Source: Malacoraja senta (lineage: Eukaryota). From it: a stretch of 64,000 bases of DNA. Below are positions 17,750 through 62,523 of the stretch, one piece after another; the stretch's first letter is position 1, and each line of letters starts with the position of its first letter. The stretch spans positions 25,298,001 through 25,362,000 of the forward strand of contig CM075987.1 of assembly GCA_038087875.1 (NCBI GenBank), read 5' to 3'. The notes under the pieces were generated by a model. The model was not told where the DNA came from, searched no databases, and was given only the letters and a program-made list of their open reading frames with translations. The translations under genes were made by a program, and so were the position numbers.

Positions 17750-18306
17750 ACATGATAAGGAAATAATGTTTAGCCCAAGGTAAAGCCAGTAAAGTCCAAT
17801 CAAGGATAGTCCGAGGGTCAGAAACAGGCCCTTCGGCCCAACAGCGATCCCCGTACAATAGACGATAGACAATAGGTGCAGGAGTAGGCCATTCGGCCCG
17901 TCGAGCCAGCACCGCCATTCAATGTGATCATGGCTGATCATCCCCAATCAGTACCCCTTTCCTGCCTTCTCTATACTAATGCTATCCTACACACTAGGGA
18001 TAATTTCACCTTTTTGTTTTAACAATGCCAATAAACCTACAAACCTCTACGTCTTTGGAATGTGCGAGGAAACCGGAGCACCAGGAGAAAACCCACGCGG
18101 TCACGGGGGGAAGGTACAAACTCCGTACAGGCAGCACCCGTAGTCAGGATCGAACCCGGGTCAATTGTCCCTAGTGTGTGTAGGGTAGTGTTAGTGTTAG
18201 TGTTAATGTGCGCAGGGAGCGCTGGTCGGCACGGACTCGTTGGGCCGCAGGGCCTGCTTCCACGCCATATATCTCAACTAAAGTAAAACTGAACTGTGAA
18301 CCACAA

Positions 18307-19503
18307 GACTTTCAGAAGGCTTTCGACAAGGTCCCACATAAGAGATTAGTATACAAATTTAAAGCACACGGTATTGGGGGTTCAGTATTGATGTGGATAG
18401 AGAACTGGCAGGCAAACAGGAAACAAAGAGTAGGAGTAAACAGGTCCTTTTCACAATGGCAGGCAGTGACTAGTGGGGTACCGCAAGGCTCAGTGCTGGG
18501 ACCCCAGCTATTTACAATATATATTAATGATTTGGATGAGGGAATTGAATGCAACATCTCCAAGTTTGCGGATGACACGAAGCTGGGGGGCAGTGTTAGC
18601 TGTGAGGAGGATGCTAGGAGGCTGCAAGGTGACTTGGATAGGCTGGGTGAGTGGGCAAATGCATGGCAGATGCAGTATAATGTGGATAAATGTGAGGTTA
18701 TCCACTTTGGTGGCAAAAACAGGAAAGTAGACTATTATCTGAATGGTGGCCGATTAGGAAAAGGGGAGATGCAACGAGACCTGGGTGTCATGGTACACCA
18801 GTCATTGAAAGTAGGCATGCAGGTGCAGCAGGCAGTGAAGAAAGCGAATGGTATGTTAGCATTCATAGCAAAAGGATTTGAGTATAGGAGCAGGGAGGTT
18901 CTACTGCAGTTGTACAGGGTCTTGGTGAGACCACAGCTGGAGTATTGCGTTCAGTTTTGGTCTCCAAATCTGAGGAAAGACATTCTTGCCATAGAGGGAG
19001 TACAGAGAAGGTTCACCAGATTGCTTCCTGGGATGTCAGGACTTTCATATGAAGAAAGACTGGATAGACTCGGCTTGTACTCGCTAGAATTTAGAAGATT
19101 GAGGGGGGATCTTATAGAAACGTTCAAAATTCTTAAGGGGTTGGACAGGCTAGATGCAGGAAGATTGTTCCCGATGTTGGGGAAGTCCAGGACAAGGGGG
19201 CACAGTTTAAGGATTAAGGGGAAATCCTTTAGGACTGGGATGAGAAAAACATTTTTCACACAGAGAGTGGTGAATCTCTGGAACTCTCTGCCACAGAAGG
19301 TAGTTGAGGCCAGTTCATTGGCTATATTTAAGAGGGAGTTAGATGTGGCCCTTGTGGCTAAAGGGATCAGGGGGTATGGAGAGAAGGCAGGTACAGGATA
19401 CTGAGTTGGATGATCAGCCATGATCATATTGAATGGCGGTGCGGGCTCGAAGGGCCGAATGGCCTACACCTGCACCTATTTTCTAAGTTTCTATGTTTCT
19501 ATG
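18307..19503 (+). mobile_element. 5'-truncated CR1 LINE; open ORF2 reverse-transcriptase C-terminal half (to 19404)
   Basis: DFQKAFDKVPH, SGVPQGSVLGP, KFADD, ERVQ-type RRFTR motifs; (ttctatgt)n tail. Confidence 0.95.
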
Positions 19504-29172: not shown

Positions 29173-32100
29173 ATGCATGACACCACACAAAAGAACCTAG
29201 GAGAATCTCATTTTGTAGTTGGAATATAAGAGGTATTAACGAACCTATCAAAAGGGGTAAGATATTAGCTCAGCTAAAAATGTATAATTTCAGACATTAC
29301 CTTCCTACAAGAACACACCTAAAACCTCAGGACCAAGTTAGGCTGAGGGCGAAATGGATAGTCAAACATACCACTCTTCATTCACTTCAAAATCTAGAGG
29401 CACGTCAATTATCATAAGAAAAGGTATACCATTTAAAGCAAAGAATATTATAACAGATATAGAAGGGAGATACCTAATAGTTAATGGAGAAATCCATGAC
29501 ACTCCACTTACTTTGGTAAATATATATGCCCCTAACTTTGATAACCCCCACTTTTTCAATAAAATCTTCAATATAATTGCAGAGTCAAACTATCAAAATG
29601 TTATAATAGGCGGAGACTTTAACTGTGTTTTAGATCCGTACTTAGATAAATCAAGTCAAAAACAGAGAGGGAATATGAAATCGAAAACTGGGGAACTCCT
29701 CAATACCTACATAAATAACACTAATATAGCAGATGTTTGGAGAATTGTGAATCCAACTGGCAGGGAATTTTCGTTTTACTCAATGGTACATAAGACATAC
29801 TCACGTATAGACTACTTTCTGCTGGATACAAAATTAATCCCCCAAACATCTAATGCAATATACCATACAAATTCAATTTCAGACCATTCTCCACTAACTT
29901 TCTTTTTAAAACTGGAAGGATTGTCTAAGAATAATTCATTCTGGAGATTTAACTCTCAAATTTTAAAAGATCCACAAGCGAGTATATATTTAAAAGAACA
30001 AATGGAGGTCTTTTTTCAAACAAATGATACTTCAGATATATCGCCTACTTTACTTTGGGAATCTTTTAAAGCATACATTAGGGGTATCATAATTTCATAT
30101 CAAGCTTTTCAAAATAAAAAGAATAAGAATGAACAAAGACAGTTAGAAGAACTTATTAGACAAATGGATATAGATAATGCTAAAGATCCATCAATAGATA
30201 AACATAATAAAATAATAATTTTAAAATTTAAATTAAATAAATTATTATCTGCCAAACTTATAAGACTTTTTCAAATTACAAAACAAGAGCACTTTGAATT
30301 TGGGATAAAACCGCATAAACTTTTGGCTCGCCAGCTAAAAAAACGAGAAAAGGAACATACTATACCAAAGATCAAATCAGATAAAGGGGAATTATTAACA
30401 ACACCGAAGGATATTAATAAAAGATTTGCGCAATTTTACGAGAATTTGTATACATCTAAAACGATAATTTGATTCCAATAATATCACAAAGTTCTTGGAT
30501 ACCTGTAATCTTCCAAAGTTAGAGCTGAAGGAACAAGAGGAACTGGGTGCACAAATCTCAATTAAGGAATTAGAAGATACAATAAACTCACTAAAAAATG
30601 GAAAAACACAGGCCCTGATGGATTTACTAATGAATTTTATAAAAGCTTTTATGATAAAATAATACCAAGATTACAAAAAATGTACCAATAACGCTTTTAA
30701 AAAACGAATACTACCTGATACATTAGTGGAATCAACGATTACATTAATACCTAAGAAAAATAAGGATTTAGAAGAACCTGGCTCATATAGAGCTATAGCA
30801 TTGTTAAACACAGATCAAAAAATATTAGCGAAAACATTAGCCAGAAGATTAAGTAAATACATTAGGAAATTAATAAACCCAGATCAGACAGGGTTTATCC
30901 CTAAGAGATACTCTTCTAATAATATGAGACGTCTACTCAACATAATGCACTCACACAAATCTGAAGATCAAGAATTATCAATTATTTCGCTGGATGCTGA
31001 AAAAGCATTTGATCAAGTAGAATGGAATTATATGGATAAAGTATTACAAAAATTTCAACTGGGAGAGATTTTATTTTATGGATTAAGTTACTATATAACA
31101 AACCTACAGCTAGAATACTTACTAATAACATATTATCCTCGAAATTCCAACTATCAAGGGGAAATAGACAAGGATGCTCATTATCACCACAGCTGTTTGC
31201 TCTCATTATTGAACCGCTAGCAGAAAAAATTAGAATACACCCTGATATTCATGGATATAATACTAAAGACTCATATAATAAAATATCTTTATACGCGGAT
31301 GATATATTATTGTATATACAAAACCTCAAATAACTATACCAAATATATTAAATTTAATTGAAGACTTCGGATCTTTTTCTGGATATAGAATAAATTGGAA
31401 TAAAAGTGAAATTATGTCAATAAAACCGAAAGATTCAACACATCTTTTAAAATTCCCTTTTAAAATAGCTACAGAAAAATTTAAATATTTGGGAATCGAA
31501 ATTACCAGAACATATCAAGGTATGCTCAGGGCAAATTTTGACCCCCTACTTAATAAACTGAATACATTAATTAAATTCTGGAAAACGCTCCCGATGTCTT
31601 TAATAGGCCGAATAAACGCAATAAAAATGATCTTTTTACCACAAATTTATACCTATTTCAATCAATTCCTATATACTTACCTAAGAAGTTTTTTAAAAAA
31701 ACTCGACTCAGATATCACTAATTTTATATGGGACTATAAATCACATAGAATACAAAAAACCCATCTGAATAAACCTAAAGTATTGGGGGGTCTAGCACTA
31801 CCTATTTTATGTATTATTATTGGTCAGTAAATATTAAAAACATGATTCAACTGATGGATAACTCCGCCCAGCAAGTAGACTGGATTGTAATGGAGAAAGA
31901 GGATTGCTCCTCTAGAAACATTGGAGCGATCCTCCTCTCTCCAATGAAATTGAATAACATAAACTATAATAAGAACCCAATTATTCATAGTACAATCCGT
32001 ATTTGGAAACAAATAAAACAAAATTTAAAATTAAGAAACTTATCACTTTTATTACCTATAGTCAATAACCCTTCGTTTAGTCCTTCTATTATAGATAAAG

Positions 32101-33371
32101 CTTATACACAATGGGATAGACTAGGGAATTAAAACGCTTGGTGACTTGTATGAAACTGGAAAATTACTTTCATTCAACAATTACAAATAAAATATAAACT
32201 CGGAAATAATCAATATTTTAAATACTTTCAAATATGCGACTATTTGAAAAAATATATAAAAGATCATCATAATAACCCAGCAGATGTACTGGACGAGGCA
32301 ATGCAGACAAAAGCGGAATCAACAAACTTAATATCATATTTGTACAATATATCTTAAATGTACAAATACCATCTACGGAGGGTATCAGAAGAGACTGGAA
32401 CAAGAGTTAGCTATTAAAATTTCAAAGGAAAGTTGGAATGAATACTTATTAAAAGTGCATAAATGCTCGATTAATGTAAGACACACTTTAATACAATTTA
32501 AAATTTTACATAGATTATATTATTCGAAAACTAAAATTCATAAAATGTTCCCAAACGTATCATCTATTTGTGATAAATGTCAATCCCAAGAAGCAACTAT
32601 AGCGCACTCATTTGTCTTCTGTACAAAAATTCAAAAATTTTGGAATGAAATTTTTGAAATCTTTACAAAGTTATTTAAAACAAGACTGATACCCAAAGCA
32701 GAATGGATTATCTTCGGAATAACGGAAGATGATCCAGAACTAAATGAGTTTCAAAAGAAATTAATGGATTAGGGTTAATAACTGGAAAAAAGCTAATTCT
32801 AAAATTTTGGAAGAAGGCTCCAATACCAACTATAAATATGTGGATTTCAAATATGTTTGAAACATTACACCTTGAAGAGATAAGACTCCTCCTAGCAGGT
32901 AAACCAGATCACTTCCACCTGACGTGGTCTGCATTTATAGAATTATTACAACATAGGGTGCAAAAGTACTTTAAAAAAAATAAAAAATGAGGTCGGGTAA
33001 GGGGGGATGATAGTTGAAGAGTTGGTATGTCCTATTTACGTGATGCTCAAAAAAAAAAAAACATTTGTTTCTCTTTTTTTCTCTTTCTCTTCTTTTCTTA
33101 GGGCCTATTTCTTAACTCTTTTCTTTTGTTTTTAATTTCGCTCTTATAGGGTCTTCGTCCTTTTTTGTTGTTACATTTTCTACACTTTTCTACACTTGCA
33201 CTTTTTCCTTCACTTTCTTCTCTCTTTCAATCTTTTCTTTCTCTAGTGTAAAAAATAAATAAAGGGAGTACATTAATTGTAAGAAGATATAAATGACGAG
33301 TATTAATGTATGTGGTTGTAATGTAATGTACCTTCATAATAAATAAAAATTAAAAAAAAAAAAAAAAAAAA
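29173..33371 (+). mobile_element. L1-clade LINE lacking ORF1; complete but frameshifted ORF2 (about 29173-32956), 3' UTR and poly(A)
   Basis: APE endonuclease (SWNIRG, NIYAPN, GGDFN, SRIDY, SDH); RT (YRAIAL, DAEKAFD, RQGCSLSP, YADD); CCHC knuckle CDKC..AHSFVFC; AATAAA + A20. Confidence 0.95.
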
Positions 33372-33558
33372 CACATAAATGTTCTTTGTCCAACGTGAAG
33401 TGTGTTACTGTAAATGGGCATTTCTAAAATATAATGCAAGTCTGCACCACCAGACTCAGGAACAGCTTCTTCACCTCTGTCGTCAGGCTTCTGAATGGTC
33501 CTTCCATAAGCTAGGGTACTGCCCGATTCACCTCTACCCCATTGCGGACATTGGACTT

Positions 33559-33702
33559 CTTCTTCTTCTTCTTGTGTATGGCGTGTACAGCCTAAAGTTG
33601 TAGGACAACTTGTTCTATTTGATCTTACTTGAATGTGCACACCAGGTTGATTGCATCCGTCGAAACAGGGCGGACCACGTGAAGGTTGCAATCTCCCACC
33701 CC
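33559..33702 (-). mobile_element. Ribozyme-headed short retroposon (type A) with (GAA)n tail
   Basis: TSD ggacattggactt at 33546-33558 and 33705-33717; same 5' start as the copies at 40556 and 44672. Confidence 0.9.
33649..33702 (-). ncRNA. Minimal HDV-like ribozyme (54 nt)
   Basis: GGGGUGG-GA-GAUUGCA-ACC-UUCACGU-GGU-CCGCCCU-GU-UUCGA-CGGA-UGCAAUC. Confidence 0.85.
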
Positions 33703-34048
33703 ATGGACATTGGACTTTGTCTATGGAACTAAAGGTGGACACAAAAAGCTGGAGTAACTCAGCGGGTCAGGCTGCATCTCTGGAGAAAAGGAATGGGTGA
33801 CGTTTCGGGTTGAGACCCTTCGAGCTTATGCGCTACAATGCTGAGAACTATATTTTGCACCCTATATCTTTCCCTTTGCTCTATCCATTGTACTTGAGCT
33901 GGCGTGATTGTATTCACTTATGGTATTATCTGATCTACGTTAAAAGGAACTGCAGATGCTGGTTTCTACCGAAGATAGACACAAGTGCTGGAGTAACTCA
34001 GAGGGTCAGGCCGTATCTCAGGAGAAACAGGATGGGTGATGGGTGAGT

Positions 34049-34076
34049 CTGAAGAAGGGTCCCGACCCGAAACGTC
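34049..34076 (+). ncRNA. Minimal hammerhead motif in a Penelope-like pLTR
   Basis: CUGAAGA-A-GGGU(CCCG)ACCC-GAAA-CGUC. Confidence 0.65.
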
Positions 34077-37000
34077 ACCCATCCTTTTCCTCCAGAGATG
34101 CTGCCTGACCCGTTGAGTTACTCCAGCATTTTGTGCCTATCTTTGGTATTATCTGATCTGCTTGGGTAAATTTCAATGACTGGCTTTGCAGTTAAAATAC
34201 AACCATGTCAATCGAGATGACTGTCACTTGCGGGGTACAGGGGCAATGGGTGTGGAAAAAGTACAACCCATTGGTGATATTTCCACAAATTCTATAATTC
34301 AAATATCTTCCTTCAGCAAAAATATCCTCAACATGGCTTTGACTGCTCATTAGATGGTGTGCAAGCCCTTTCATTTTTCTGAACATATCTCAAAAGATTC
34401 TCTAAATTTTTTTCCATTCAGTAGGATCTGCAAGTCCAAGTCACCAGAGAAAGCTATGTCTTTTTATACTGCTGTCAGCTTACAGTATTTTCAATTGCCA
34501 ACTAATTTAAAGTTCCATGAATTCTCTGACCAAAGCCAAGTTCCATTCTAGTGAGCAAATCAATTCTTTGCACCGTTTTCTGCTGCGCTCCTAAATACAA
34601 TCCCATAATTACTGACTTGCAAATTAATAATTTTCTCTATCACACTAACCGCTCATTTTTATATTTATTATACATTTTATATTTATTATATTTTTATATT
34701 TAGTCGGAGGGTGGTGAATCTGTGGAATTCTTTGCAACAGAATGCTGTGGAGGCCATCAGAAGATATTTTTAAGGCAGAGATAGATAGATTCTTAATTAG
34801 TGCGGGTGTCAGAGGTTATGGGGAGAAGGCAGGAGAATGGGGTTAGGAGGGAGAAATAGATCAGCCAAGATTGAATGTTGTAGACTTGATGGGCCGAATG
34901 GCCTAATTCTACTCCTATTCCTGATGACCTTATGATTTGTATATTTTATATGTTTTATTACAGTCTATACACAAATTTAAAAAAAATCCAAAATTAGTTT
35001 TTGTCTTTGCATTTGGTATGAAGTTAGTATGTTATCGAACAATGTAAAGATACATTCACGACGGTTCAATCAAGAGACACAAGGAACTGCAAGATGCAGT
35101 TTGCAATACAAAACACACGAAAAACAAAGCGCTGGAGTAACGGGGTCAGGGTGGCACGGTGGCGCAGTGGTAGAGTCTATACAGGTGCTGTCTGTATAGA
35201 GTTTCTAAGTTCATCTACGTCGGTGTGGGCTAGTTGAGCCAAAGGGCCTGTTTCCATGTTGTATGAATTTATAATTCGAATAGCAGTCAGGATTGGTAAT
35301 TCTACCCTAGCCTTCACTGTTAAAGGTCTTGGGTTTTCTCCAGTGGCTCCAGTTTCCTCCCACGCTTCAAAGACGTACAGGTTTATAGGTTAATTGTCTT
35401 CCACAAAATTGTAATTTATCCCTAGTCTGTGCAGGATAGTGTTAGCGTGCGGGGATCGCTGGTCGGCGCGGACTCGGTTGGCCTAATCTCTAAACTAAAA
35501 CTAATCTGTAAAACTAAACTAAGCTCAATGGATCAAGCAGCATCTCTGGATGACATGGATCGGTGACATTTATCCAGCTCGGACACTTCTCCCGGTTTAG
35601 TCAGGGCCAGAAAATCTCTGTTATTTTCACAGCACTGTGTTTTTCAAAACAAATGTTGATTTTCCACCCACATTTAAAAGTGCACTCTCCTGCAGAAGTG
35701 ACTGAGATATGATGCTCTGCATCTCCATTCCTGGGAGCGCAGGAGGACGAAGGGTGTACAAAATCATGAGAGGAATAGATCGGGTCGACGCACAGAGTCT
35801 CTTGCCCAGAGTAGGGGATCGAGAACCAGAGGACACAGGTTTAAGGTGAGAGGGGGGAAAGATTTAATAGAACCCCGAGGGGTAACTTCTTTTTTACACA
35901 AAGGGTGTTGGGTGTATGGAACGAGCTGTCGGAGGAGGTAGTTGAGGTAGTACTAGGAAACAATTAGACAGGTGCATGGATAGGACAGGTTTTAGAGGGA
36001 TATTGGCCAAACGCAGGCAGGTGGGACCAGTGCAGATGGGACATGCTGGTCAGTGTGGGTAAGTTGGGCCAAAGAGCCTCTTTCCATGTGGTATGAGTCT
36101 ATAATTTGAATAGCAGATAGGATTGGTAATTCTACCCTAGCCTTCATTGTTAAAGGCCTTGGGAGGTGTGATATGGTGCTGAACACAGTTAAGTTGTTAC
36201 ACCTAGGGTGGTGCTTTGCGCATGACTGAGATGGATGTGGGCAACTTTCAATCTTTAATTGCCTAATTTATATACAGACCATTAAGGGCGGTGAATCTGT
36301 GGAATTCATTGCCACAGACGGCTGTGGAGGCCAAACGCTGGATATTTTTAAGGCGGAGATTGACGGATTCTTGATTAGTACGAGGTGTCAAGGGTTATGG
36401 GGAGAAGGCAGGAGAATAGGGTTGGCAGTAAAAGATGGATCAGCCACGATTGAATGGCGGTGTAGACTTGATGGGCCGAATGGCCTAATTCTGTTCCTGG
36501 GAATTATGAACTAAATACCCCAAAACAAGATTCATTACAGTGAGCGAAAACTACAAATAAAGTGAATTATTGAACCAGAAATCGGTTGCATTTCATAGCA
36601 GTAAACTAACCTCAAGGTGATGACCATTTTATTTAACTTGGCAACCAGTAGGCACTACATTTTTGTCAGGCAAACCTTTTGCTTCATTATCCAGTTCTTT
36701 GTTGCAATTGAAGTTTGCACACATTTTGCAGAGGTGGCAAGTTTTCCCAACCTTGCCTAATGTACATTCCGATTCCGATTTTAATTGAAGTACAGTACAT
36801 ACTTTACATAACAATCCCATGCTATTCCCATGGGTTGAATGCATTATATTGCCCTGCTTGTGTGGACCCAGTTCCTGGTAGTGAACGAGGCTTAATCACC
36901 TGGATAAAAATAAAGAATTAAACAAAGTTAATTAAATAGCATATAAATGTAGAACATGGGGATAGTGTAGGACAAGGTGTAATAAAATATGATCATTATG

Positions 37001-37789
37001 CTACTCAATCCAACTGTGAATAGTTATACCTGGTCTGAAATGCTAATTTAATCACCAACATGATTTAGAAAAATGATAGAAAAACATATTTTCCCAGCGA
37101 TGTCTTATGAAACGTGGGAAGAGGAAGAAATAAAAATAAGTAAGGACAAAGAAAACAATGAAAAATGAATGAGTGAAGGAAATTCAGAGAGAGAGAGAGG
37201 GGAAAGGTGGGGGAAGAGAAAGAGTGAGACACAAAGAACTGCAGATGATGATTTACAAAAAAAAACACACAAAGTGCTGGAGTTCCTCAGCGGGTGAGGC
37301 GGAATCTCTGGAGAACATGGATAGGTGACGTTTTGGGTCAGGGCCTTTCTTCGGAAAGAAGAAGATTCCCCAATCTGAATGTCACCTTCTGACAGCGCCA
37401 GAGAAGCGGGTTCGATCCTGACCTTGGGTGCAGTCTGTACGGAGTTTGTACTTTCTCCTCAAGACCTGCGTGGCTCCCCCCCCCCCCCCCCACCACAATC
37501 CAAAGACGTGCAGGTTTGTAGGCTAATTGGCTTCTGTAAATGATCCCTAGTGTGTAGAGTAGAACTAGTGAACATGGATCGCTGGTTGGCGCAGACTCGG
37601 CAGGCCAAAAGGCCCGTTTCCATCCTGTATCTCTAATCTCTAAACTAAACGAAACTAAGTTTGAAGATAAAGTCAAGTTTGGAAAACTGGAGTAACTGGA
37701 GCTGACTTTGCACGTTGATTTGAATTATACCCACAAGGGAAGCGTTGCTCCCTGTAAAACAGAAAGGTGGAGAGATCGAACTTTCATTC

Positions 37790-38940
37790 CATTTAGTATA
37801 TTGTCACGTGTACCGAGGTACAGTGAAAAGCTTTTGTTGAGTGATAACCAGTCAGCGGAAAGACAATACATGATTACAATCGAGCCATTCGCAGTGTACA
37901 GATACATGATAAGGGAATAACGTTCAGTGCAAGGTAACGCCAGTAAAGTCTGATCAAGGATAGTCCGAGGGTCACCAAAGAGGTGGATGAGCACTCAATA
38001 GTCCAGTAGTTCAGATTAGTGGTTCAGGACTGCTCTCTGGATCAGGGGCGGAAAACCCGGGGGTAGCCAGAGGGGACACGTCCCCCCCATGTTTCGAGAG
38101 GTGGGGACATCCCCCCCAAGTTTTTGTGATCCGTATTTTAAAATCTCCGCTTTCCGCGAGGCAGTGGGGGTTGGGACTGCTGATCGAGGGCGAGATGATT
38201 GGAGGAGGGAGGAGTGAGGTGTGTGGGGGGGGGGGGGGGTGGGACTGAGGATAGAGCGCGGCGATTGGAGGAGGGAGACGTGGCACAGACCTGCGCCTCA
38301 TCCGCAGGCAGGATCGATCCCGGCCGGGTCTCCGGCGCTGTCCCGAGTGCTCCCCCCCACCCCCCCCCACGGGTGGCCAGAGAGGTCGGGAGTCAGACAC
38401 GAGCTGTACCCCCAGGCCCACAGCCAGCGCAGAGAAGCAGCACTAAACCCAGCTCACTCTGCCTGTCCTGCCTGGGCTTGCGGGAAATATGGCCAGCGCG
38501 GAGAAGCAGCGCTGGTGTCCCGTCAGTCCAGTCAGGGCTGTAGTTAACCCGGTGAGACAGGCAGTGTTGAGCTGCATTTAGCGCTGGATTGAGCCTCCGA
38601 AGCCTCGCGCGCGCGTGTGTGTGAGCGGCCGCCAAAAAATGGTGTCCCCTGTCCCCTCCATGTTTTGATAGCGAGTTCCGCCCTTGCTCTGGTTATGGTT
38701 GGATGATTCCGTTGCCTGATAACAGCTGGGCGGAAGCTGTCCCTGATTCTGGAGGTGTGCGTATTCACACTTCTGTACCTTTTGCCCGATGGGAGAGGGG
38801 AGAAGAGGGAGTGGCCGGGGTGCGGCTCGTCCTTGATTATGCTGCTGGCCTGGCCGAGGCACCGCGAGGTATAAATGGAGTCAATAGAAGGGGGGGGGGG
38901 GGGGGGGGTTGGTTTTTTTGTGATGGTCTGGGCTGCAAGT
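37790..38940 (-). mobile_element. Rex1/Babar LINE 3' fragment interrupted by a hAT-like MITE
   Basis: AAQTIT..SIDSIYTSRCLGQASSIIKDEPHPGHSLFSPLPSGKRYRS on minus, plus the 3' UTR. Confidence 0.8.
38043..38686. mobile_element. hAT-like non-autonomous DNA transposon
   Basis: TIR caggggcggaa / ttccgcccttg; 8-bp TSD ctctggat (38035-38042) / ctctggtt (38687-38694); subterminal ggggaca/tgtcccc motifs. Confidence 0.8.
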
Positions 38941-40555
38941 TCTTGTGGTCTTGGATGGAGCAGTTCCCAAATCAAGCTGCAAGGCAATGCGATAAAATGC
39001 TTTGTACTGCACATCTGTAGAAGTGCGTCTATGCTCTCTATGGTGCCTCTTTTTGCACGATGTCCCGAACACTTTGTAGTCAGTCTAATACTTCTAAATT
39101 TATTCCCTGTTTTGATTCCAAAGCCCAGCAGCCAGCGAGTTCCCAAGGCTATTCACTGCTGTGATTGCTGAAAAAAAATTTGCCAAACAAACAACATTGC
39201 TAATGAGATTCCCCTGGTGCTCAAGCTGGCTTGGACACTGATTTCATTCTGTATTTAATAATTAGTACCCATGGTGATGCAATTATTACTTGGCGGTATC
39301 ATGCAGATTTCTTATTAAAATGATTTTTTTTTACTATTACGTGGAAGACTAGGAAGCACTGTGTTCCATTCTCTGGGCTCAATCAGTAAGTGGCTATCAG
39401 AGTTCATCATGAAATTCAGTTGGAGTGAATAGGGCTTCAGTACACTGTTAGGAATAAGAATGACTGATTATAACATTGCTACACTTTCTGAGACTATTAC
39501 TAGTCAACAAGCATTTCTTCCATTATCACCAAGAAAGCCCATAGAGTCATAGAGTGATACAGTGTGGAAACAGGCCCTTTGGCACAACTTGCCCACACAG
39601 ACCAAAATGTCCCATCGACACTAGTCCCACCTGCCTGCGTTTGCCCCATATCCCTCTAAACCTATCCGATCCATGTACCTGTCTAGATGCTTCTTAAATG
39701 CTGCGATTGTACGTACCTCAACTAACTCCTCCGGCAGCTCGTTCCAGACACCCACACCTCTACCACCTTAGAAGATTGAGGAGTCAACGAATACTCTTTT
39801 GAACTTCTACAGGTGTACAGTAGAGAACATATCGACTGGTTGCATCATGGCCTAGTTCGGCAAAACGGTCGCCCAGGAACGAAGAAGCTTGTAAAAAGTT
39901 GTGAACACTGCCCAGCCCATCACAGATACTGACCTCCCCACCATCGAAGGGATCTTTTATTTTTTTTCCCCCCAATATTTACATATCTGTTGTGCTGCTG
40001 CAAGTAAGAATTTAATTGTTCCGTGTGGCAATATGACAATCTGGTCTCTGAAAACCTCTGATGAAAATGTGCCTTTGCAAAAAAAAATGCAGAGAAGCAA
40101 AATATTTTGTTGACTGCATTTTAGATATTTCATTACCATTGATTGATCAATGGGTTTTTAGATGCAAGGGGAATCAGGGGATATCAGATAAGTGGCACAG
40201 AGGTAAAAGATCAGTCATAATCTTATTCAATGACAGAGCAACAACCCTTGCTTCCATTTCCTACATTCTTACCAACAAAGTGAAATATCACAGATGCAGG
40301 TGGCCCAGTGGCACATCATTAGAGTTGCTGCCTTACAGCGCCAGAGACCTGAGTTCAATCCTGGCTATGGGTGCTGTCTGCACGGAGTTTGTACGCTCTC
40401 CCCGCGACTTTTTCACTTTTTCACACAGAGAGTGAAAACACTTGTTCACACAGAGAGTTGTCAGTCTGCGGAATTCTCTGCCTCAGAGGGCGGTGGAGGC
40501 CGGTTCTCTGGATACTTTCAAGAGAGAGCTAGATAGGGCTCTCAAAGATAGCGGA

Positions 40556-40609
40556 GGGGTGGGAGATTGCAACCTTCACGTGGTTCACCCTGTTTTGACG
40601 AATGCAAAC
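40556..40609 (+). ncRNA. Minimal HDV-like ribozyme (54 nt)
   Basis: GGGGUGG-GA-GAUUGCA-ACC-UUCACGU-GGU-UCACCCU-GU-UUUGA-CGAA-UGCAAAC; putative catalytic C at 40599. Confidence 0.85.
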
Positions 40610-40689
40610 AACCTGGCGTGCACAAACGGAAGATCAAAGTTGTCTTACAACTTTAGGCTGTGCAAGCCATACGCAAGAAGAAGAAGAAG
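40556..40689 (+). mobile_element. Ribozyme-headed short retroposon (type A) with (GAA)n tail
   Basis: TSD aagatagcg(g/a)a at 40545-40555 and 40690-40700; inserted in a CR1 3' end. Confidence 0.9.
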
Positions 40690-41400
40690 AAGATAGCGAA
40701 GTCAGGGGATATGGGGAGAAGGCAGGAACGGGGTATTGATTGTGGATGATCAGCCATGATCACATTGAATGGCGGTGCTGGCTCGAAGGGCCGAATGGCC
40801 TACTCCTGCACCTATTATCTATTGACCTGCGTGGGTTTTCTCCGAGATCTTCGGTTTCCTCCCACACTCCAAAGACGTACAGGTTTGTAGGTTAATTGGC
40901 TTGGTATAAATATAAATTGTCCCTGGTGTGTGTAGGATAGTGTTAATGTGGGTGGATCGCTGGTTGGTACGGATTCGGTGGGCCGAAGGGCCTGTTTCCA
41001 CGCTGCATCTCTGAACTAAACTAAACTGAAATAAACTGAGATGCCTCCTAATTATATTAGTGTTGCTACATCATTGATGATGATCAAGTGATCAATGCAA
41101 ACAAATGTTGTCGGTCTCAAGGACGGATTGCATGGTTGAAATACTGTACAGTGTCTGTCCTAATTCACCGTTCCTAAACCATGTTGGTAAAATGTATGTG
41201 TAACCACAAATTACAGCAATCTCAGGCATTTCAGTTGAGAGATCCAGCTTCACAAGTTCATAAGTGATAGGAGCAGAATCAGGCCATTTGGCCCATCAAT
41301 TCTAATCTGCCATTCAATCATGGCTGATCTATCTCTCCCTTCTAACCTCATTCTCCTGCCTTCTCCCCATAACATTTGACACCTACTAACCAAGAATTTA

Positions 41401-42598
41401 TCCACCAATTTTCATCCTTTTCTCAAATTCACTTGGACCATCTCCGACACCTCCCTCCCCTTTCTTGATCTCACAGTCTCCATCACAGGAAATAGACTAT
41501 TGACTGACGTCTATTACAAAAGCACTGACTCCCACAACTATCTCGACTACACTTCTTCCCACCCTGCTTCCTGCAAAGACTCTATCCCCTACTCCCAATT
41601 CCTCCGTCTACGCCGCATCTGCTCCCAAGATGAGGTGTTCCATACCAGGACATCCGAGATGTCCTCATTCTTTAGGGAACGGGGGTTCTCCGCTCCCATC
41701 ATAGATGAGGCCCTCACTCGTGTCTCCTCGGTACCCCGCAGCTCCGCCCTTGCTCCCCCTCCCCCTAGTCGCAACAGAGACAGAGTCCCACTGAAACTCA
41801 CCTCCCGGCCCATCAGCCGTCGCTTACACCACACAATCCTCAGAAATTTATGCCATCTCCACCCCTTTCTGCCTTCCGCAGAGACCGTTCCCTCCGCAAC
41901 TCCCTGGTTAGCTCATCCCTTCCCACCCAAACCAATGCCGACAGTCCTTTCAGGATAGGCAGAGGTTCACTTGCACCTCCTCCAACCTCATCTACTGTAT
42001 CCGCTGTTCAAGATGTGGACTCTTATACATCGGTGAGACCAAACGCAGACTGGGCGATCCTTTCGCGGAACACCTTCGCTCAGCCCGCGTGAACCAACCT
42101 GATCTCCCAGTTGCTGGACACTTTCATTCTCCTTCCCATTCCTACACAGACCTTTCTGTCCTCGGTCTCCTCCATTGTCAGTGAGGTTAAACGCAAATTG
42201 GAGGAACAGCATCTCATATTTCGCTTGGGCAGCTTACAGCCCAGTGGTATGAATATTGAATTCTCTCATTTCAGGTAGCCCCGGCATTCCCTCTCTCTCT
42301 CTCTCTATCCCTCCCTCCCCAACATCGCACTATTCTCATTTTCACCCTACAAACAGCTAACAATGGCCTGTTTCCTTTATCATCATTACTGTTTTGCAAG
42401 TCTTTCATTCATTGTTCTTTATCTCTACTTCATCATCTATATCTCTCGTTTCCCTTATCCCTAACCAGTCTGAAGCAGAGTCTTGACCCGAAAAGTCACC
42501 CATTCCTTCTCTCTAGAGATGCTGCCTGTCCTGCTGAGTTACTCCAGCTTTTTGTGTCTATCTTCGGTTTAAACCAGCATCTGCAGTTCCTTCTTACA
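41401..42598 (+). mobile_element. Penelope-like retroelement, 5'-truncated (RT C-terminus + GIY-YIG, frameshifted) with pLTR
   Basis: NFHP..KFTW..LPFLD, YYKSTDSHNYLDYTSSHP, SNLIYCIRCSRCGLLYIGETKRRL; TSD-like caagaat(t/c)tatc. Confidence 0.9.
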
Positions 42599-44671
42599 CA
42601 AGAATCTATCTGTCTCTGCCTTAAAAATATCCATTGACTTGGCCTCCACAGCCTTCTGTGGCAATGAATTTCATAGACTCACCACCTTCTGACTAGAGCA
42701 ATTCCTCCTCATCACCTTCCTAAAGGAACATCCTTTAATTCCACTTCCAGGAAAACAATAAATACATTTACCTGAATGATTCAGTGTCACAATGATGGAT
42801 TTCTGCCATGTTATAAACCTCCATGTGATTATCCAAGGGTTTACACTTTCAGTTCAATCATTTTACGTAATGACAATTGTGAGTTCCCTTTTAATGCAGA
42901 AAACTGAAGATAATTTGGAGTGACGGAATCCAAATTGAATTGAATCTGTTCCAAAAACAGCGATCAGAATGCATTAATTCACTGGCAGGGCCCATTGCCA
43001 TAATCTAATAATGCATAATCCATGACAGAGGCGGCATGATTGCAAAGCTGCTGTTGACCAGAGGGTCGCTCAGTACTTCACTAAGACACGATTAAAAGAG
43101 CAGGCATTCAGTCAAACTGCACTTTGTTTAGTTGGAGCAAAGAGCCACAGATGCTGGTTCATACCAAAGATAGACACGGAGTGCTGGAGTAACTCTGCTG
43201 GTCAGGCAGCATCTCCTGAGATAAAGGAATGGGTGACGTTTCGGGTCGGGAACCTTCTGCACACACTTTGTTTAGTTTTAGTTAGACGTATGGCATGGAA
43301 ACATACTGTACGGAGCCTACAGTATGGAGCATCAAAACATGCCCTTTGGCCCTCCAAGTCTGCGTCGACCATCGAATGCCCTTCACACTGATTCCATGTT
43401 ATCCCATCCACTCTCCACACACTATGTATTTAATATACAAAGGCCAATTAACCTACAAACACACACGTCCTTGGGATGTGGGAGGAAACCGGAGCACCCG
43501 GAGGAAAACCATAACATCACAGGGAGAATGTACGAAAACGCTGTACAGACAGCACCCGTAGTCAGGATCGAACCCCGGCCCCTGGCGCTGTAAGGCACCA
43601 AATCTACCTCCCCACCACAGAGCCAAAGGAGACTTTGACCTTCCCCAACTTTTGTACTCCGAATTCAAACTCCACACGGACGGCACCCGAAGGTCAGGAT
43701 CAAACCATCTACCAGCTGTGCCACTTTCAAAAACAGCATATAAGTTGAGAGGAGCAAAGATGTACGGGAACGTATTTTTTTTACGGAAGTTGGTGGGTGC
43801 CTGGAACGTGCTGCCAGAGATGGTGGTGGAGGTAGGTACCATAGTGGTGCTTAGGTGGCTTTTCGATAAGCACGTGGACATGCAGGGAATGGTGGGATTC
43901 GGATCATGCAGGGAGATGGGATTAGTTCATCTTGCCATCATGGTCAGCATAGAGGTTGTGGGCCGAAGGGCCTGTTCCTCTGTTTTATTCTTCTATGTCC
44001 CATGTTTTAATCCTAAAACAAAAGTGCAACACATCACTGTCATTGATTATAATTTTATTCCAGTAGTGTTCTTGATTGCAAAGATGTTCAATCAGTTTGC
44101 AATTGATAAGCAAAACTGGAATTGTACTTCAATGATAAGGAGTTACTGTCTGGTCACATATATATTACAATACAGAAACATATCATTACAATCAATCCAC
44201 AGAAACTTCTCGGCCTACACGGTAGGCTTATTATTTAAACTCGTATTTATATAAACAATTCTGTACTCAGACTACTGTGCAATCAAAGCAATTTGTGATT
44301 TCCACAACACCGGTACAATCGCTCATGTTTACAGTGGAAACAAGCCGGCAATGGCGGCAGTGCTTACCCAGAAAGCCGTGCGCCGCAGAAAGTGCCCCAT
44401 TGGTGAGATGGGGGGAACCCAAGTTTACAAGTAGATAGACACAAAATGCTGGAGTAACTCAGCGGGACAGGTAGCATCTCTGGAGAGAAGGAATGGGTGA
44501 CATTCCGGGTCGAGACCCTTCTTCAGACTAGTCAAGGGAAAGGGAAACGAGAGATACAGATGGAGATGCAGAGAGATAAAGAACAATGAATGAAAGATAT
44601 GCAAAATGGTAATGATGATAAAGGAAACAGGCCGTTGTTAGCTGTTTGCTGGGTGAGAACAAGAAGCTGGT

Positions 44672-44725
44672 GGGGTGGGAGATTGAAACCTTCACGTGGT
44701 CCACCCTGTTTCGACTAATGCAATC
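44672..44725 (+). ncRNA. Minimal HDV-like ribozyme (54 nt)
   Basis: GGGGUGG-GA-GAUUGAA-ACC-UUCACGU-GGU-CCACCCU-GU-UUCGA-CUAA-UGCAAUC. Confidence 0.85.
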
Positions 44726-44807
44726 AACCTGGCGCGCACAAACAGAAGATCAAACAGAACAAGTTGTCCTACAACTTTAGGCTGTGCACGCCACACGCAA
44801 GAAGAAG
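44672..44807 (+). mobile_element. Ribozyme-headed short retroposon (type A) with (GAA)n tail
   Basis: TSD aagaagctggt at 44661-44671 and 44808-44818; inserted in a Penelope-like 3' region. Confidence 0.9.
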
Positions 44808-45634
44808 AAGAAGCTGGTGCGACTTGTGTGGGGGAGGGATGGAGAGAGAGGGAATGCCGGGTTACTTGAAGTTAGAGTGCCTGTGTTGTTTGCTCATGCA
44901 CACCTTCCACGGGCACATCTACTCCAGTTACTTTCACTTGCATCACTCTCCACCCAACCCTCCTCCTCATGGTGCGGCAGAGTTGCTCCCTCACAGCGCC
45001 AGAGACCCGGGTTCGATCCTGACGATGGGTGCTGTCTTCACGGAGTTTGTACGTTCTCCCTGTGACCTCATGGGTTTTCTCCAGGTTTCCTTGTTTCCTC
45101 CCACACTCCGCACAGATAAGTACCCGTAGTCAGGATCGAACCTGGGTCTCTGGCGCTGTAAGGCAGACAACTCTACCGCTGCGCCATCGTACTTACTTCA
45201 GCAACCAGAGGAAGCCAAACCTATTACCTGATCCTGTCAAAATGTTGCATTTTGCATTGCGATTTCCAGGCATAGCAAAATTAATTTTTCAAGTCTTTAT
45301 TCACACAGGCATTGCCTTATTTGTAGAGCAGATAGCTTGCCACTAAATACGTATTGCACTTGTATCAATAGTCTTCTTTCAATTCTTCATAAATGTTCTA
45401 ATTGCTATTATTAAGATTTATATTTGGTTACCGTGACTTTCCTATTCTATATGGCGGTGCTAAATCCTTAAAATCCATTCCCCTTGTCTGTTTAAACAAT
45501 CTTATCAATTAAAAATTACTAAAATATATCCTTCGGTTCGTTGAGAACATTGCAATCTCTCAGCTTCAGGAAGGCACTGATAGAAGTTCATTCGGAATGA
45601 TGCTCCTCGACTGGTGTTTATTTCAAGAAGGCCT

Positions 45635-53823: not shown

Positions 53824-54908
53824 CATAGAAACATAGAAACATAGAAACATGGAAAATAGGTGCAGGAGTAGGCCATTCGGCCCTTCGAGCCTGCACCGCC
53901 ATTTAATATGATCACGGCTGATCATCCAACTCAGTATCCTGTACCTGCTTTCTCTCCATACCCCCTGATCCCTTTAGCCACAAGGGCCACATCTAACTCC
54001 CTCTTAAATATAGCCAATGAACTGGCCTCAACTACATTCTGTGGCAGAGAATTCCAGAGATTCACCACTCTCTGTGTAAAAAATGTTTTTCTCTTCTCAG
54101 TACTAAATGATTTCCCCTTTATCCTTAAACTGTGACCCCTTGTTCTGGACTCCCCCAACATCGGGAACAATCTTCCTGCATCTAGCCTGTCCAACCCCTT
54201 AAGAATTTTGTAAGTTTCTATAAGATCCCCCCCTCAGTCTTCTAAATTCCAGCGAGTACAAGCCGAGTCTATCCAGTCTTTCCTCATATGAAAGTCCTGA
54301 CATCCCAGGAATCAGTCTGGTGAACCTTCTCTATACTCTCTCTATGGCAAGAATGTCCTTCCTCAGATTAGGAGACCAAAACTGTGCGCAATACTCCAGG
54401 TGTGGTCTCACCAAGACCCTGTACAACTGCAGTAGAACCTCCCTGCTCCTATACTCAAATCCTTTTGCTATGAATGCTAACATACCATTCGCTTTCTTCA
54501 CTGCCTGCTGCACCTGCATGCCCACTTTCAATGACTGGTGTACCATGACACCCAGGTCTCGTTGCATCTCCCCTTTTCCTAATCGGCCACCATTCAGGTA
54601 ATAGTCTACTTTCCGGTTTTTGCCAGCAAAGTGGATAACCTCACATTTATCCACATTATACTGCATCTGCCATGCATTTGCCCACTCACCCAGCCCATCC
54701 AAGTCATCTTGCAGCCTCCTAGCATCCTCCTCACAGCTAACACTGCCCCCCAGCTTCGTGTCATCCGCAAACTTGGAGATGTTGCATTCAATTCCCTCGT
54801 CCAGATCATTAATATATATTGTAAATAGCTGAGGTCCCAGCACTGAGCCTTGCGGTACCCCACTAGTCACTGCCAGCCATTCTGAAAAGGACCCGTTTAC
54901 TCCTACTC
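53824..54908 (-). mobile_element. 5'-truncated CR1 LINE, same subfamily as 18307-19503
   Basis: SGVPQGSVLGP, KFADD; (ttctatgt)n tail; one frameshift near 54230. Confidence 0.95.
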
Positions 54909-56077
54909 ATTTTCCCACTACATAAGAGATTGCCATATGCCACATGCGCATTGTCCTGATATTTATCAGATTGAATTCCATTGAATATTTTATTGTCAGG
55001 TGACAAGTCACAAGTATGCAAATGGTCGCTCATAAAGGGGGCTGACAAAATTACAAATCCCCCTGCTCCAGTTTCCCCTTTGTTCTCCCCCTCCCTCACG
55101 CCGGGTCCTTCTTCGTTCCTTTCTGTCGGCAGCGGCGTCCCCACTTCCACGTGTCCGTCCACGTCCGTCGGCCGGCGCCACCATTGACCGCCGCACCGAC
55201 CTCTCCACTATCGCCGCCGGGTCCTCTGCCAGCGTGAATATCTTGATGCGTGCATCTACTGAGACATCATAAAATCGTCTTCTCAGTTTCCAAAGCATAT
55301 CTCCTAAGTGGCCTCTGACTGTGAGCTGGTAGTCTGCTCCCTTCACAATGAGCAAAGCACAACGTGTTAGAGTAACTCAACTCCTCAGGCAGCATCTGCG
55401 GGGAGAATGGATAGGTGATTTTTCCAGGTCGGGGGCCTCCTTCAGACTTTTCCTATCCATTCCTTCCACAGATGCTGCCTGACCCGCCGAGATCCTCCAA
55501 CACTTTGTATTTTGCTCCAGATTCCAACATCTGCAGTTCGTTGTGTCTCCCTTCCTAACGGCACTTGTTTGTCCAGCTGCAATTACAAAACGGATTACTG
55601 CTTTGTGAGTACATTTGGATGTAGTTTGAAGCCTTAATTACTGGTATTAATCAAATCAACATTCACTGCACAAAATATACTCTAACCACAGATTATTACA
55701 CCTTAATGGAGAGGTATTTTCAGTGAATTACTAACAACCCACATGCTAAATCAACTGATAGAAAATATTCTCTGAAATTCTATAAATTGCTTATTTACCA
55801 TCAATCAACATCATTCCTTGAAAAGTAACACTTCCATAAACCTGCAAATATTCAAGTTTCTAAATATGCAGTCCTTGACTTTTGTCATCTGCAAAGATAT
55901 GTCAGCATTCTAAGAATTAATAATTTGACAAATTATCCGACTTTTACCTGTTATGGCGATGCTGTGGCGCAGCGGTAGAGATTCTGCCTCACAGCGCCAG
56001 AGACCCGGTTCGATCCTGACTACGGGTGCTGTCCGTATGGAGTTTGTACGTTCTCCCCGCGACCCGCGTGGGTCCAA

Positions 56078-61231: not shown

Positions 61232-62330
61232 GGTACACAAAAATGCTGGAGAAACTCAGCGGGTGCAGCAGCATCTATGGAGCAAAGGAAATAGGCAACG
61301 TTTCGGGCCAAAACCCTTCTTCAGACTGATAGGGGGTGGGGGGAAGAAAGGAAAAAAGGAAAAAGGCGGAGGAGGAGCCCGAGGGCTGGGGGAGGGGAGG
61401 AGACAACCAGAGGGCTGATGAAGGGGAGGGGACAGCAAGTGCTAGCAGAATTGGGAGAATTCAATGTTCAAGCCCCCAGGATGTAGACTGCCCAAGCGGA
61501 ATATGAGGTGCATTTCCTCCAATTTACGGTGTTGCTCGTTGTGGCCATGGAGGAGACCCAGGACAGAGAGGTCAGATACGGAATGGGAGGGTGAGTTGAA
61601 GTGCTGAGCCACCGGGAGCACAGGTTGGTTATTGCGGACGGACCGGAGGTGTTCGGCGAAACGATCGCCAAGCCTCCGCTTGGTCTCACCGATGTAGATC
61701 AGCTGGCATCTAGAGCAGCGGATGCAATAGATGAGGTTGGAGGAGATGCAGGTGAACCTCTGTCGCACCTGGAACGACTGCTTGGGTCCTTGAATGGAGT
61801 CGAGGGGGGAGGTGAAGGGACAAGTGTTGCATCTCTTGCGGTTGCAAGGGAAAGTACCCGGGGAGGGGGTGGTATGGGAGGGAAGGGAAGAATTGACAAG
61901 GGAGTTACGGAGGGAGCGGTCTTTGCGGAAGGCAGACATGGGGGGAGATGGGAAGATGTGGCGAGTGGTGGGGTCACGTTGGAGGTGACGAAACTGACGG
62001 AGGATCACTTGTTGTATGTGACGGCTGGTGGGGTGAAAGGTGAGGACTAGGGGGACTCTGCCCTTGTTGTGAGTGGGGGGATGGGGAGAGAGAGCAGTGT
62101 TGCGGGGTATGGCAGAGACCCTGGTGCGAGCCTCATCTATGGTGGAGGAGGGGAACCCCACGTTCCCTGAAGAATGAGGACATTTCAGATGCCCTGGTGT
62201 GGAACGCCTCATCCTGGGAGCAGATGCGGCGTAGACGGAGGAATTGGGAGTGGGGGATGGAGTCCTTACAGGAAGCAGGGTGGGAAGAAGTGTAGTCCAG
62301 ATAGCCATGGGAGTCGGTGGGTTTGCAGGT
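61232..62330 (-). mobile_element. Penelope-like retroelement, 5'-truncated (RT tail, Cys motif, GIY-YIG) with pLTR
   Basis: KPTDSHGYLDYTSSHP; CNRKRCNTC; SNLIYCIRCSRCQLIYIGETKRRLGDRFAEH..GLNIEFSQF. Confidence 0.95.
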
Positions 62331-62523
62331 GTGGAAATAGGAATGATGTGTCAAACATCCACCAAATATTCTAAAGATAGACACAAAATGCTTTACGTCT
62401 TTGGAGTGTGGGAGGAAACTGAAGATCTCGGAGAAATACCACACAAGTCACAGAGAGAACGTACAAACTCCATACAGACAAGCACCCATAGTCAGGATCG
62501 AACCCGGGTCTCTGGGGCTGCGA

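What the first reader, a model, noticed from the sequence alone, without database searches (positions are those of the whole stretch)
40556..40689. Second type A copy: 5' boundary falls exactly on the predicted cleavage site
Seen: the TSD (40545-40555) abuts G1 at 40556 directly, as in the 44672 copy. P1 keeps pairing through a G.U (UCACCCU), J4/2 is CGAA, and P2 has one mismatch. Identical 5' ends at independent insertion sites are what ribozyme-defined transcripts predict, unlike the random 5' truncation of the CR1 and L1 copies in this window.
Basis: partly seen in the sequence, partly recalled or inferred. Interest (0 to 1): 0.7.

Follow-up and report, generated by a model that had tools for sequence, protein, structure and literature searches.

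The report
Tiny self-cutting RNA heads jumping element
This 134-base insert is one copy of an abundant, non-coding jumping element whose first 54 bases fold like an unusually small hepatitis-delta-type self-cutting RNA, and both its DNA copies and its RNA start at the predicted cut site, which suggests the element cuts itself out of host transcripts before being copied.

Summary
Three copies lie in the window (40556+, 44672+, 33702-). Each starts at G1 of a 54-nt HDV-like fold with no P4 stem, then a 3' stem-loop, a (GAA)n tail and an 11-13 nt TSD. Public reads laid on the 44672 copy show a sharp family-wide 5' edge with unrelated flanks; only a T at -1 is enriched. In a single-cell RNA run, 1212 reads join the template-switch adaptor directly to G1 (about 70% of sense reads there), from more than one locus. 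So RNA 5' ends also map to G1. This does not separate self-cleavage from a promoter start at G1. The best reading is a ribozyme-headed non-autonomous LINE derivative (SIDE), probably Vingi-mobilised: Repbase Vingi 5' ends share its L3 loop and junctions, as does the CPEB3 ribozyme. No autonomous partner was found and cleavage is untested. It is a new variant of a known kind.

The parts
40545..40555 (+). 5' target-site duplication, 11 nt (12 if G40556 is counted as microhomology)
40556..40609 (+). 54-nt minimal HDV-like ribozyme fold: P1 40556-62/40585-91, J1/2 2 nt, P2 40565-71/40603-09, P3 40572-74/40582-84, L3 UUCACGU 40575-81, P1.1 C40577-G40592, P4 reduced to a 6-nt loop (U-UUCG-A in the other two copies, U-UUUG-A here), predicted catalytic C40599 in J4/2 CGAA
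   Evidence: feature numbering as for CPEB3
40614..40669 (+). 3' stem-loop: 11-bp outer stem and 7-bp inner hairpin; presumed recognition signal for the partner RT (inference)
40674..40689 (+). (GAA)n tail
40690..40700 (+). 3' target-site duplication (1 mismatch to the 5' copy)
40435..40821 (+). host: 5'-truncated CR1-type LINE 3' end, split by the element; itself lies inside a tRNA-type SINE (about 40308-41030)
44672..44807 (+). second family copy; TSD 44661-44671/44808-44818, G microhomology, J4/2 CUAA
33559..33702 (-). third family copy; 13-nt TSD plus 2 extra bases before G1, P2 7 of 7, J4/2 CGGA

Best explanation
A high-copy, non-coding, 135-145 nt non-autonomous non-LTR retroelement (SIDE type). 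A copy is transcribed by read-through from host promoters (inferred). Its first 54 nt fold into a P4-less HDV-like ribozyme (fold shown by sequence; activity inferred) that cuts 5' of G1 and sheds host sequence. RNA 5' ends at G1 are shown for the family, their chemistry is not. A LINE RT/endonuclease supplied in trans, most likely of the Vingi/Ingi group (about 0.65), binds the 3' stem-loop and (GAA)n tail and primes TPRT at AAG-containing targets (inferred from TSD/tail overlap in 3 of 3 copies). It copies to G1, then primes the second strand through 1-nt microhomology or added bases. This gives 11-13 nt TSDs, G ambiguity and a -1 T bias (inferred, following the R2 model in PMC3774820).
For: 3 of 3 window copies start at G1 with different flanks. 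103 of 108 structure cells pair, against 31-42% for slid controls; depth rises at bin 44670-44676 in all 4 runs (X23: 28 to 652; X1: 36 thousand to 1.0 million). The top 5' loose-end place in both DNA runs is 44671 (103 and 157 contigs) with flank agreement 0.35, i.e. no shared upstream sequence. In X21, 1212 reads carry the adaptor (agreement 0.98), then TGGG, then G1; T>G at 44671 is in 1210 of 1227 sense reads against 3 of 30 antisense. No allele at 44716 exceeds 43% while adaptor reads would be 57% of the depth, so several loci contribute. Among the 40 listed variant rows, the common changes within the fold fall in J1/2, the second base of J4/2 and a U-A/U.G wobble, or restore P2. No intact Pol III A/B boxes. 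Four Vingi segments in the PMC5786205 supplement show the same layout by eye.
Against: No cleavage assay. No double-sided compensatory change among the 3 copies, and the shuffle control is uninformative. Plain folding is no better than shuffles (z 0.62). No Rfam HDV family matched at gathering score or at E up to 10. One search listed no unclipped begin/end piles (table 6), hid 606 loose-end rows and 80 variant rows, so no full histogram and no decay rate of the catalytic C. Template switching also captures capped RNA and favours G-starting uncapped RNA (PMC6885630, PMC6280765). The X23 row at 44672 has a consensus ending in four Gs, which could be a cap-derived extra G. RNA came from organism E, not shown to be the window's species, and says nothing on the 40556 copy itself. 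T is enriched at -1 (639 reads against 394 at G1 in X23). No autonomous partner was found.
Confidence: 0.75

Rival explanations
1. Internal promoter. The head is mainly a promoter that starts transcription at G1 (as Pr77 does in L1Tc/NARTc); the fold is inherited from the parent LINE and cuts rarely or not at all.
For: Pr77 is both promoter and ribozyme in the related Ingi group. Adaptor-G1 reads cannot tell capped from 5'-OH ends. Possible extra G in X23. P1.1 has a single C-G pair, as in the slow CPEB3 ribozyme.
Against: All catalytic-core positions are intact in 3 of 3 copies that are 90-93% identical. No Pol III boxes. In X21 the second adaptor class has one G fewer, not one more. The two roles are not exclusive.
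Confidence: 0.15
2. Same mechanism, but the partner is an RTE- or Ingi-clade LINE, or a hybrid (ribozyme of one clade, tail of another), not Vingi.
For: RTE, Ingi, Vingi and R2 all make bipartite non-autonomous LINEs, and RTE and Ingi have known ribozymes. Hybrid SIDEs exist. P1-P3 stems differ in sequence from the four Vingi ends seen. No Vingi 3' end was obtained for comparison.
Against: L3 UUCACGU, the CCCU-GU junction, CGAA and AA after P2 match Vingi-2_Gav by eye. The RTE 3' ends seen in that supplement end in CAA repeats or T runs.
Confidence: 0.3
3. The common 5' end is only the result of short length, and the RNA pile is a library artefact (strand invasion or G bias at a G run).
For: 12 of 18 CR1 hits keep 144 nt or more. 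G bias and strand invasion are documented. Short cDNAs preferentially keep the adaptor (inference).
Against: Strand invasion would give four Gs in all, aligning from 44671; that row (284 reads) has a T-rich genomic consensus, while the pile has seven Gs. The pile is sense-specific. Short length does not explain why the start is G1 of a fold with 0.02 chance hits per window.
Confidence: 0.07

Closest known systems
NARTc/RIME (Ingi-clade SIDEs with the Pr77 HDV-like ribozyme; PMC3383444, PMC4035085)
   Same: Short non-coding LINE derivative, ribozyme cutting just 5' of +1, dispersed insertions, TSDs.
   Different: Trypanosomes; 77-nt fold with P4; poly(A) tail; 263 nt. Here a vertebrate, a 54-nt P4-less fold, (GAA)n tail, 135-145 nt.
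R2 and R2/R1 SIDEs (PMC3414825)
   Same: Only a 5' ribozyme plus a 3' recognition structure; freed from a host co-transcript.
   Different: rDNA site-specific, few copies, about 500 nt, large ribozyme.
Vingi LINEs and their internally deleted derivatives (PMC5786205 text and supplement)
   Same: G-run start, L3 UUCACGU, CCCU-GU, CGAA, AA after P2 (by eye); Vingi is known to make bipartite non-autonomous copies.
   Different: The four Vingi segments seen have a real P4 and other stem sequences. [quoted passage not shown] No partner was shown here.
Minimal (P4-less) delta-like and theta ribozymes (PMC10879173)
   Same: P4 absent, compact core, catalytic C in J4/2.
   Different: That paper places nearly 99% of them in gut phages, often beside tRNAs; here the fold heads an animal retroelement.
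CPEB3 ribozyme (10.1101/2022.09.22.508989; PMC10919898)
   Same: Same 7-nt L3 and numbering (U20, U21, C22, A23, C24, G25, U26, G37, U38), one-C-G P1.1.
   Different: Single-copy, intronic, mammalian, has P4 (catalytic C57 against C44 here).

Membership tests
HDV-like ribozymes | Nested double pseudoknot P1/P2, P3, P1.1 | tested here: met
   (by sequence: P1 21 of 21 cells, P2 19 of 21, P3 9 of 9, C22-G37 3 of 3)
HDV-like ribozymes | G1.U wobble at the cut site; U20 and G25 in L3; catalytic C first in J4/2 | tested here: met
   3 of 3 copies; features
HDV-like ribozymes | P4 helix | tested here: not met
   only a 6-nt loop; P4-less minimal forms are a described subgroup
HDV-like ribozymes | Compensatory covariation | tested here: inconclusive
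   0 double-sided and 3 one-sided changes in 3 sequences
HDV-like ribozymes | Match to an Rfam model | tested here: not met
HDV-like ribozymes | RNA 5' end at G1 in cells | tested here: met
   1212 adaptor-G1 reads in X21; family level, end chemistry unknown
HDV-like ribozymes | Self-cleavage, lost with a C-to-U change | not testable with these tools
   needs an assay
SIDE / bipartite non-autonomous LINE | Short, non-coding, TSD, simple-repeat tail, no Pol III boxes | tested here: met
SIDE / bipartite non-autonomous LINE | Both ends shared with an autonomous LINE | not testable with these tools
   no genome held; no longer element in the window
Vingi-derived element | 5' end like Vingi 5' ends | tested here: inconclusive
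   layout and loop/junction letters match by eye, stems differ; no computed alignment
Vingi-derived element | 3' end shared with a Vingi; partner ORF APE-RT without RNase H | not testable with these tools
   no Vingi 3' sequence obtained; Kojima 2011 not held
tRNA-derived SINE | tRNA head with A and B boxes | tested here: not met
   best A box 2-3 mismatches, B box 1, against 0 and 0 in the neighbouring SINE (box motifs recalled)

The most novel reading that the evidence does not exclude
A P4-less HDV ribozyme, so far described almost only from phages, is active in tens of thousands of interspersed copies per gigabase of a vertebrate genome. It cuts host pre-mRNAs and releases a unit-length RNA of about 135 nt. 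It belongs to a Vingi ribozyme lineage from which the mammalian CPEB3 ribozyme is also a relic.
Probability: 0.3. Interest if true: 0.82.

Novelty: new variant of a known kind. Interest (0 to 1): 0.57.

Why it matters
Ribozyme-headed SIDEs are known from trypanosomes and from Drosophila rDNA. A vertebrate family of this density (3 in 64 kb; about 47,000 per Gb, Poisson 95% range 9,700-137,000) would be a natural mutational scan of a 54-nt HDV core. It would also be a genome-wide source of co-transcriptional cuts in host RNA. It makes two questions testable: whether Vingi 5' UTRs, already used in gene-insertion platforms (PMC13708176), are self-cleaving, and whether the CPEB3 ribozyme came from a Vingi 5' end. 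The single copy in the finding is ordinary within its family.

Tried and rejected
Whole-genome histogram: no genome held; replaced by one read lay. Rfam: 0 hits at gathering score on the window; 8 weak unrelated hits at 33400-45000. MFE folding does not model the pseudoknot and gave no signal. Exact-pattern scans: 0 loci in viral contigs, 0 in metagenomes; a 20-nt core pattern gave 8 loci, none with the P1/P2 5' strands or the tail, which read as chance matches in GC-rich coding-like DNA and were dropped. No partner LINE in the window: only the 3 short copies match; the 4 ORFs scanned are an RT, an endonuclease, a weak GIY-YIG and a blank. A -1 T as part of the RNA was rejected: such reads would align from 44669, and the pile is at 44668 with T>G at 44671. 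Earlier findings by sequence and by place: nothing. PMC5499810 has none of the 5 terms and its supplements could not be read.

Full report
Observation. The stretch 40556-40689 is a 134-nt insertion in the 3' end of a CR1-type LINE, which itself lies in a tRNA-type SINE. Three other copies of that CR1 end carry the 11-mer once, so 40545-40555 and 40690-40700 are a true TSD with one mismatch. BLAST finds three copies in the window: 40556+, 44672+ and 33702-, 90-93% identical over aligned columns. All begin with the same G run and have unrelated flanks. A descriptor for the HDV fold (features recalled; checked against passages) hits exactly these three in 64 kb; 100 shuffles give 0.02 hits on average. 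I found no second HDV type.

How exact the boundary is. In the 40556 and 44672 copies the target continues with G, so G1 can be element or target. The 33702 copy has a 13-nt TSD, two extra bases, then G1, and its target also carries a G run a few bases on. Such junctions are what PMC3774820 (passages) describes for R2 elements whose ribozyme cuts at the element's own end: priming by microhomology and added bases, with under 40% canonical junctions.

Anatomy. The fold is 54 nt. P4 is reduced to a 6-nt loop, U-UUCG-A in two copies and CpG-decayed in this one. A 3' stem-loop (11-bp outer stem, 7-bp inner hairpin) and a (GAA)n tail follow. 103 of 108 cells pair, against 31-42% for slid controls. 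There is no double-sided change, and with three sequences the shuffle control says nothing. Rfam gave nothing relevant. There are no intact Pol III boxes (recalled motifs).

The family at large. No genome was held. I listed 23 runs and laid 4 of them on 44642-44843 at 80% likeness: DNA contigs X1 (organism A, kind not on record, 88% read, 11,050 laid) and X6 (organism E, 14,916), bulk RNA X23 (5% read, 3,853) and single-cell RNA X21 (1% read, 4,681), both organism E. I used the 44672 copy as bait because it is nearer the majority sequence. Depth steps up at bin 44670-44676 in all four runs. In both contig runs the only listed 5' loose-end places are 44671 (103 and 157 contigs, flank agreement 0.35) and an internal break at 44746. 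So there is no shared upstream sequence beyond one base. That base is often T: 639 X23 reads align from 44671 against 394 from G1. Of the 16 pieces shown (of about 26,000, chosen mostly for length), 6 have 30 or more letters of 5' flank; 4 start at 44671, 1 at G2 and 1 at 44683 (my reading of the record coordinates). Only 24 of 630 loose-end rows were shown, so the full histogram was not obtained.

RNA ends. In X21, 1212 reads have a loose end that I recognise from recall as a template-switch adaptor (agreement 0.98), followed by TGGG and then G1. That is 70% of the 1743 sense reads at 44679; the antisense side shows 3 of 30. Seven Gs in a row exclude strand invasion at the element's own G run and exclude a start at the -1 T. 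Allele shares at 44716 (43, 41, 16%) mean the reads come from more than one locus. A second row at 44672 (370 reads, mixed) has a consensus fitting adaptor plus one G fewer. 330 reads end in poly(A) at 44800, by polyadenylation or priming on the tail. Limits: template switching accepts capped and uncapped ends and favours G (PMC6885630, PMC6280765, passages); a capped G2 start would look the same; short cDNAs keep the adaptor preferentially; cutting may have occurred during library preparation; table 6 listed no piles; and one X23 consensus ends in four Gs, possibly a cap signature.

CR1 copies are indeed truncated at dispersed points (18 hits, 74-1079 nt retained). The L1 is nearly a singleton here and tests nothing. 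But 12 of 18 CR1 hits retain 144 nt or more after rejoining the split host copy (the script counted 11), and the tRNA-type SINE also piles its starts (11 of 23 head-containing hits, of 34 in all). Uniformity alone is not diagnostic; coincidence with G1 in both DNA and RNA is the evidence.

Mechanism. Read-through transcription, self-cleavage at G1, trans-mobilisation through the 3' stem-loop and tail, TPRT at AAG-bearing sites, and second-strand priming by microhomology or an added base. Shown: fold by sequence, TSDs, DNA edge, RNA ends. Inferred: catalysis, the source of transcription, the partner and the cause of the -1 T. I put 0.75 on ribozyme-defined ends and 0.15 on a promoter doing the job.

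Partner and known systems. The supplement of PMC5786205 (passages and part 11 of 15) prints segments of Vingi-2_Gav (2-74), Vingi-4_Crp (1-64), Vingi-1_BF (8-69) and Vingi-2_SPur (395-451). By eye they are HDV folds with P4; two have the same L3 and the others near variants. The main text (passages) names RTE, Ingi, Vingi and R2 as makers of bipartite non-autonomous LINEs and does not list Vingi among ribozyme-bearing clades. Two of these four segments do not start at position 1-2 of their consensus, which warns that G1 is not always the annotated end. The closest described systems are NARTc/RIME (PMC3383444, first of 4 parts; PMC4035085, passages) and R2 SIDEs (PMC3414825, passages). P4-less forms are described mainly from phages (PMC10879173, passages). 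A review notes hundreds of ribozyme copies with shared downstream and different upstream sequence in several metazoans (PMC6765202, passages), so the pattern itself is known. The element works like a SIDE; membership in Vingi is unproven.

Novelty. I take the host to be a cartilaginous fish, from recall of its SINE and CR1 families; no call tested this. Searches (listings and abstract starts; two searches showed 20 of 218 and 20 of 963) turned up no paper on this family, on a Vingi ribozyme, or on a Vingi origin for the CPEB3 ribozyme. Kojima 2011 and Ruminski 2011 were not held, Webb 2009 was not read, the supplements of PMC5499810 could not be seen, and Repbase/Dfam could not be searched; any of these may already cover part of it. 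Other papers seen as passages only: PMC13708176, PMC5753468, PMC3747384, PMC10919898, 10.1101/2022.09.22.508989 (62). Earlier AI notes show similar ribozyme-headed elements in other genomes (8 of 9 shown); I did not test them. Verdict: real, a new variant of a known kind, interest 0.57.

Noticed in passing
PMC5786205 supplement compared with PMC10919898 primer and window 40575-40593: Repbase Vingi 5' segments read as HDV folds and match the mouse Cpeb3 ribozyme primer nearly letter for letter around L3; the CPEB3 ribozyme may be a relic Vingi 5' end.
   Followed up: partly
window 44671: T is enriched at the -1 position across copies although RNA starts at G1; target preference or an added base.
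   Followed up: partly
window 44741-44760 (tables 4, 7): The indel-rich middle holds a short imperfect tandem duplication in the majority form; it may mark the join of the parent LINE's 5' and 3' ends. Single contigs show internal deletions of 33-70 nt.
   Followed up: no
window 44808 to 44671 (table 5c, X1): One contig holds two copies head to tail, 34 letters apart; another (X6 record 10, depth about 1000) suggests a copy carried inside a further amplified repeat.
   Followed up: no
window 44668-44671 (X23): 145 bulk RNA reads also show T>G at 44671, rare in DNA contigs (4 and 5 contigs), possibly adaptor-joined G1 ends in a second library type.
   Followed up: no
window 40308-41030: Three-layer nesting: tRNA-type SINE, then a CR1 3' fragment, then the ribozyme element as the youngest layer. 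All three window copies sit inside other repeats.
   Followed up: partly
window 61442-62350 (-) and 41380-42279 (+): Penelope-like fragments (weak GIY-YIG match below cut-off); not searched for hammerhead motifs beyond the blank Rfam scan.
   Followed up: no
window 29342-32772 (+); 18184-19503 (+) and 53832-54911 (-): A frame-broken L1-type element, and two CR1 copies 96% identical. An N gap lies near 27.7-27.9 kb.
   Followed up: no
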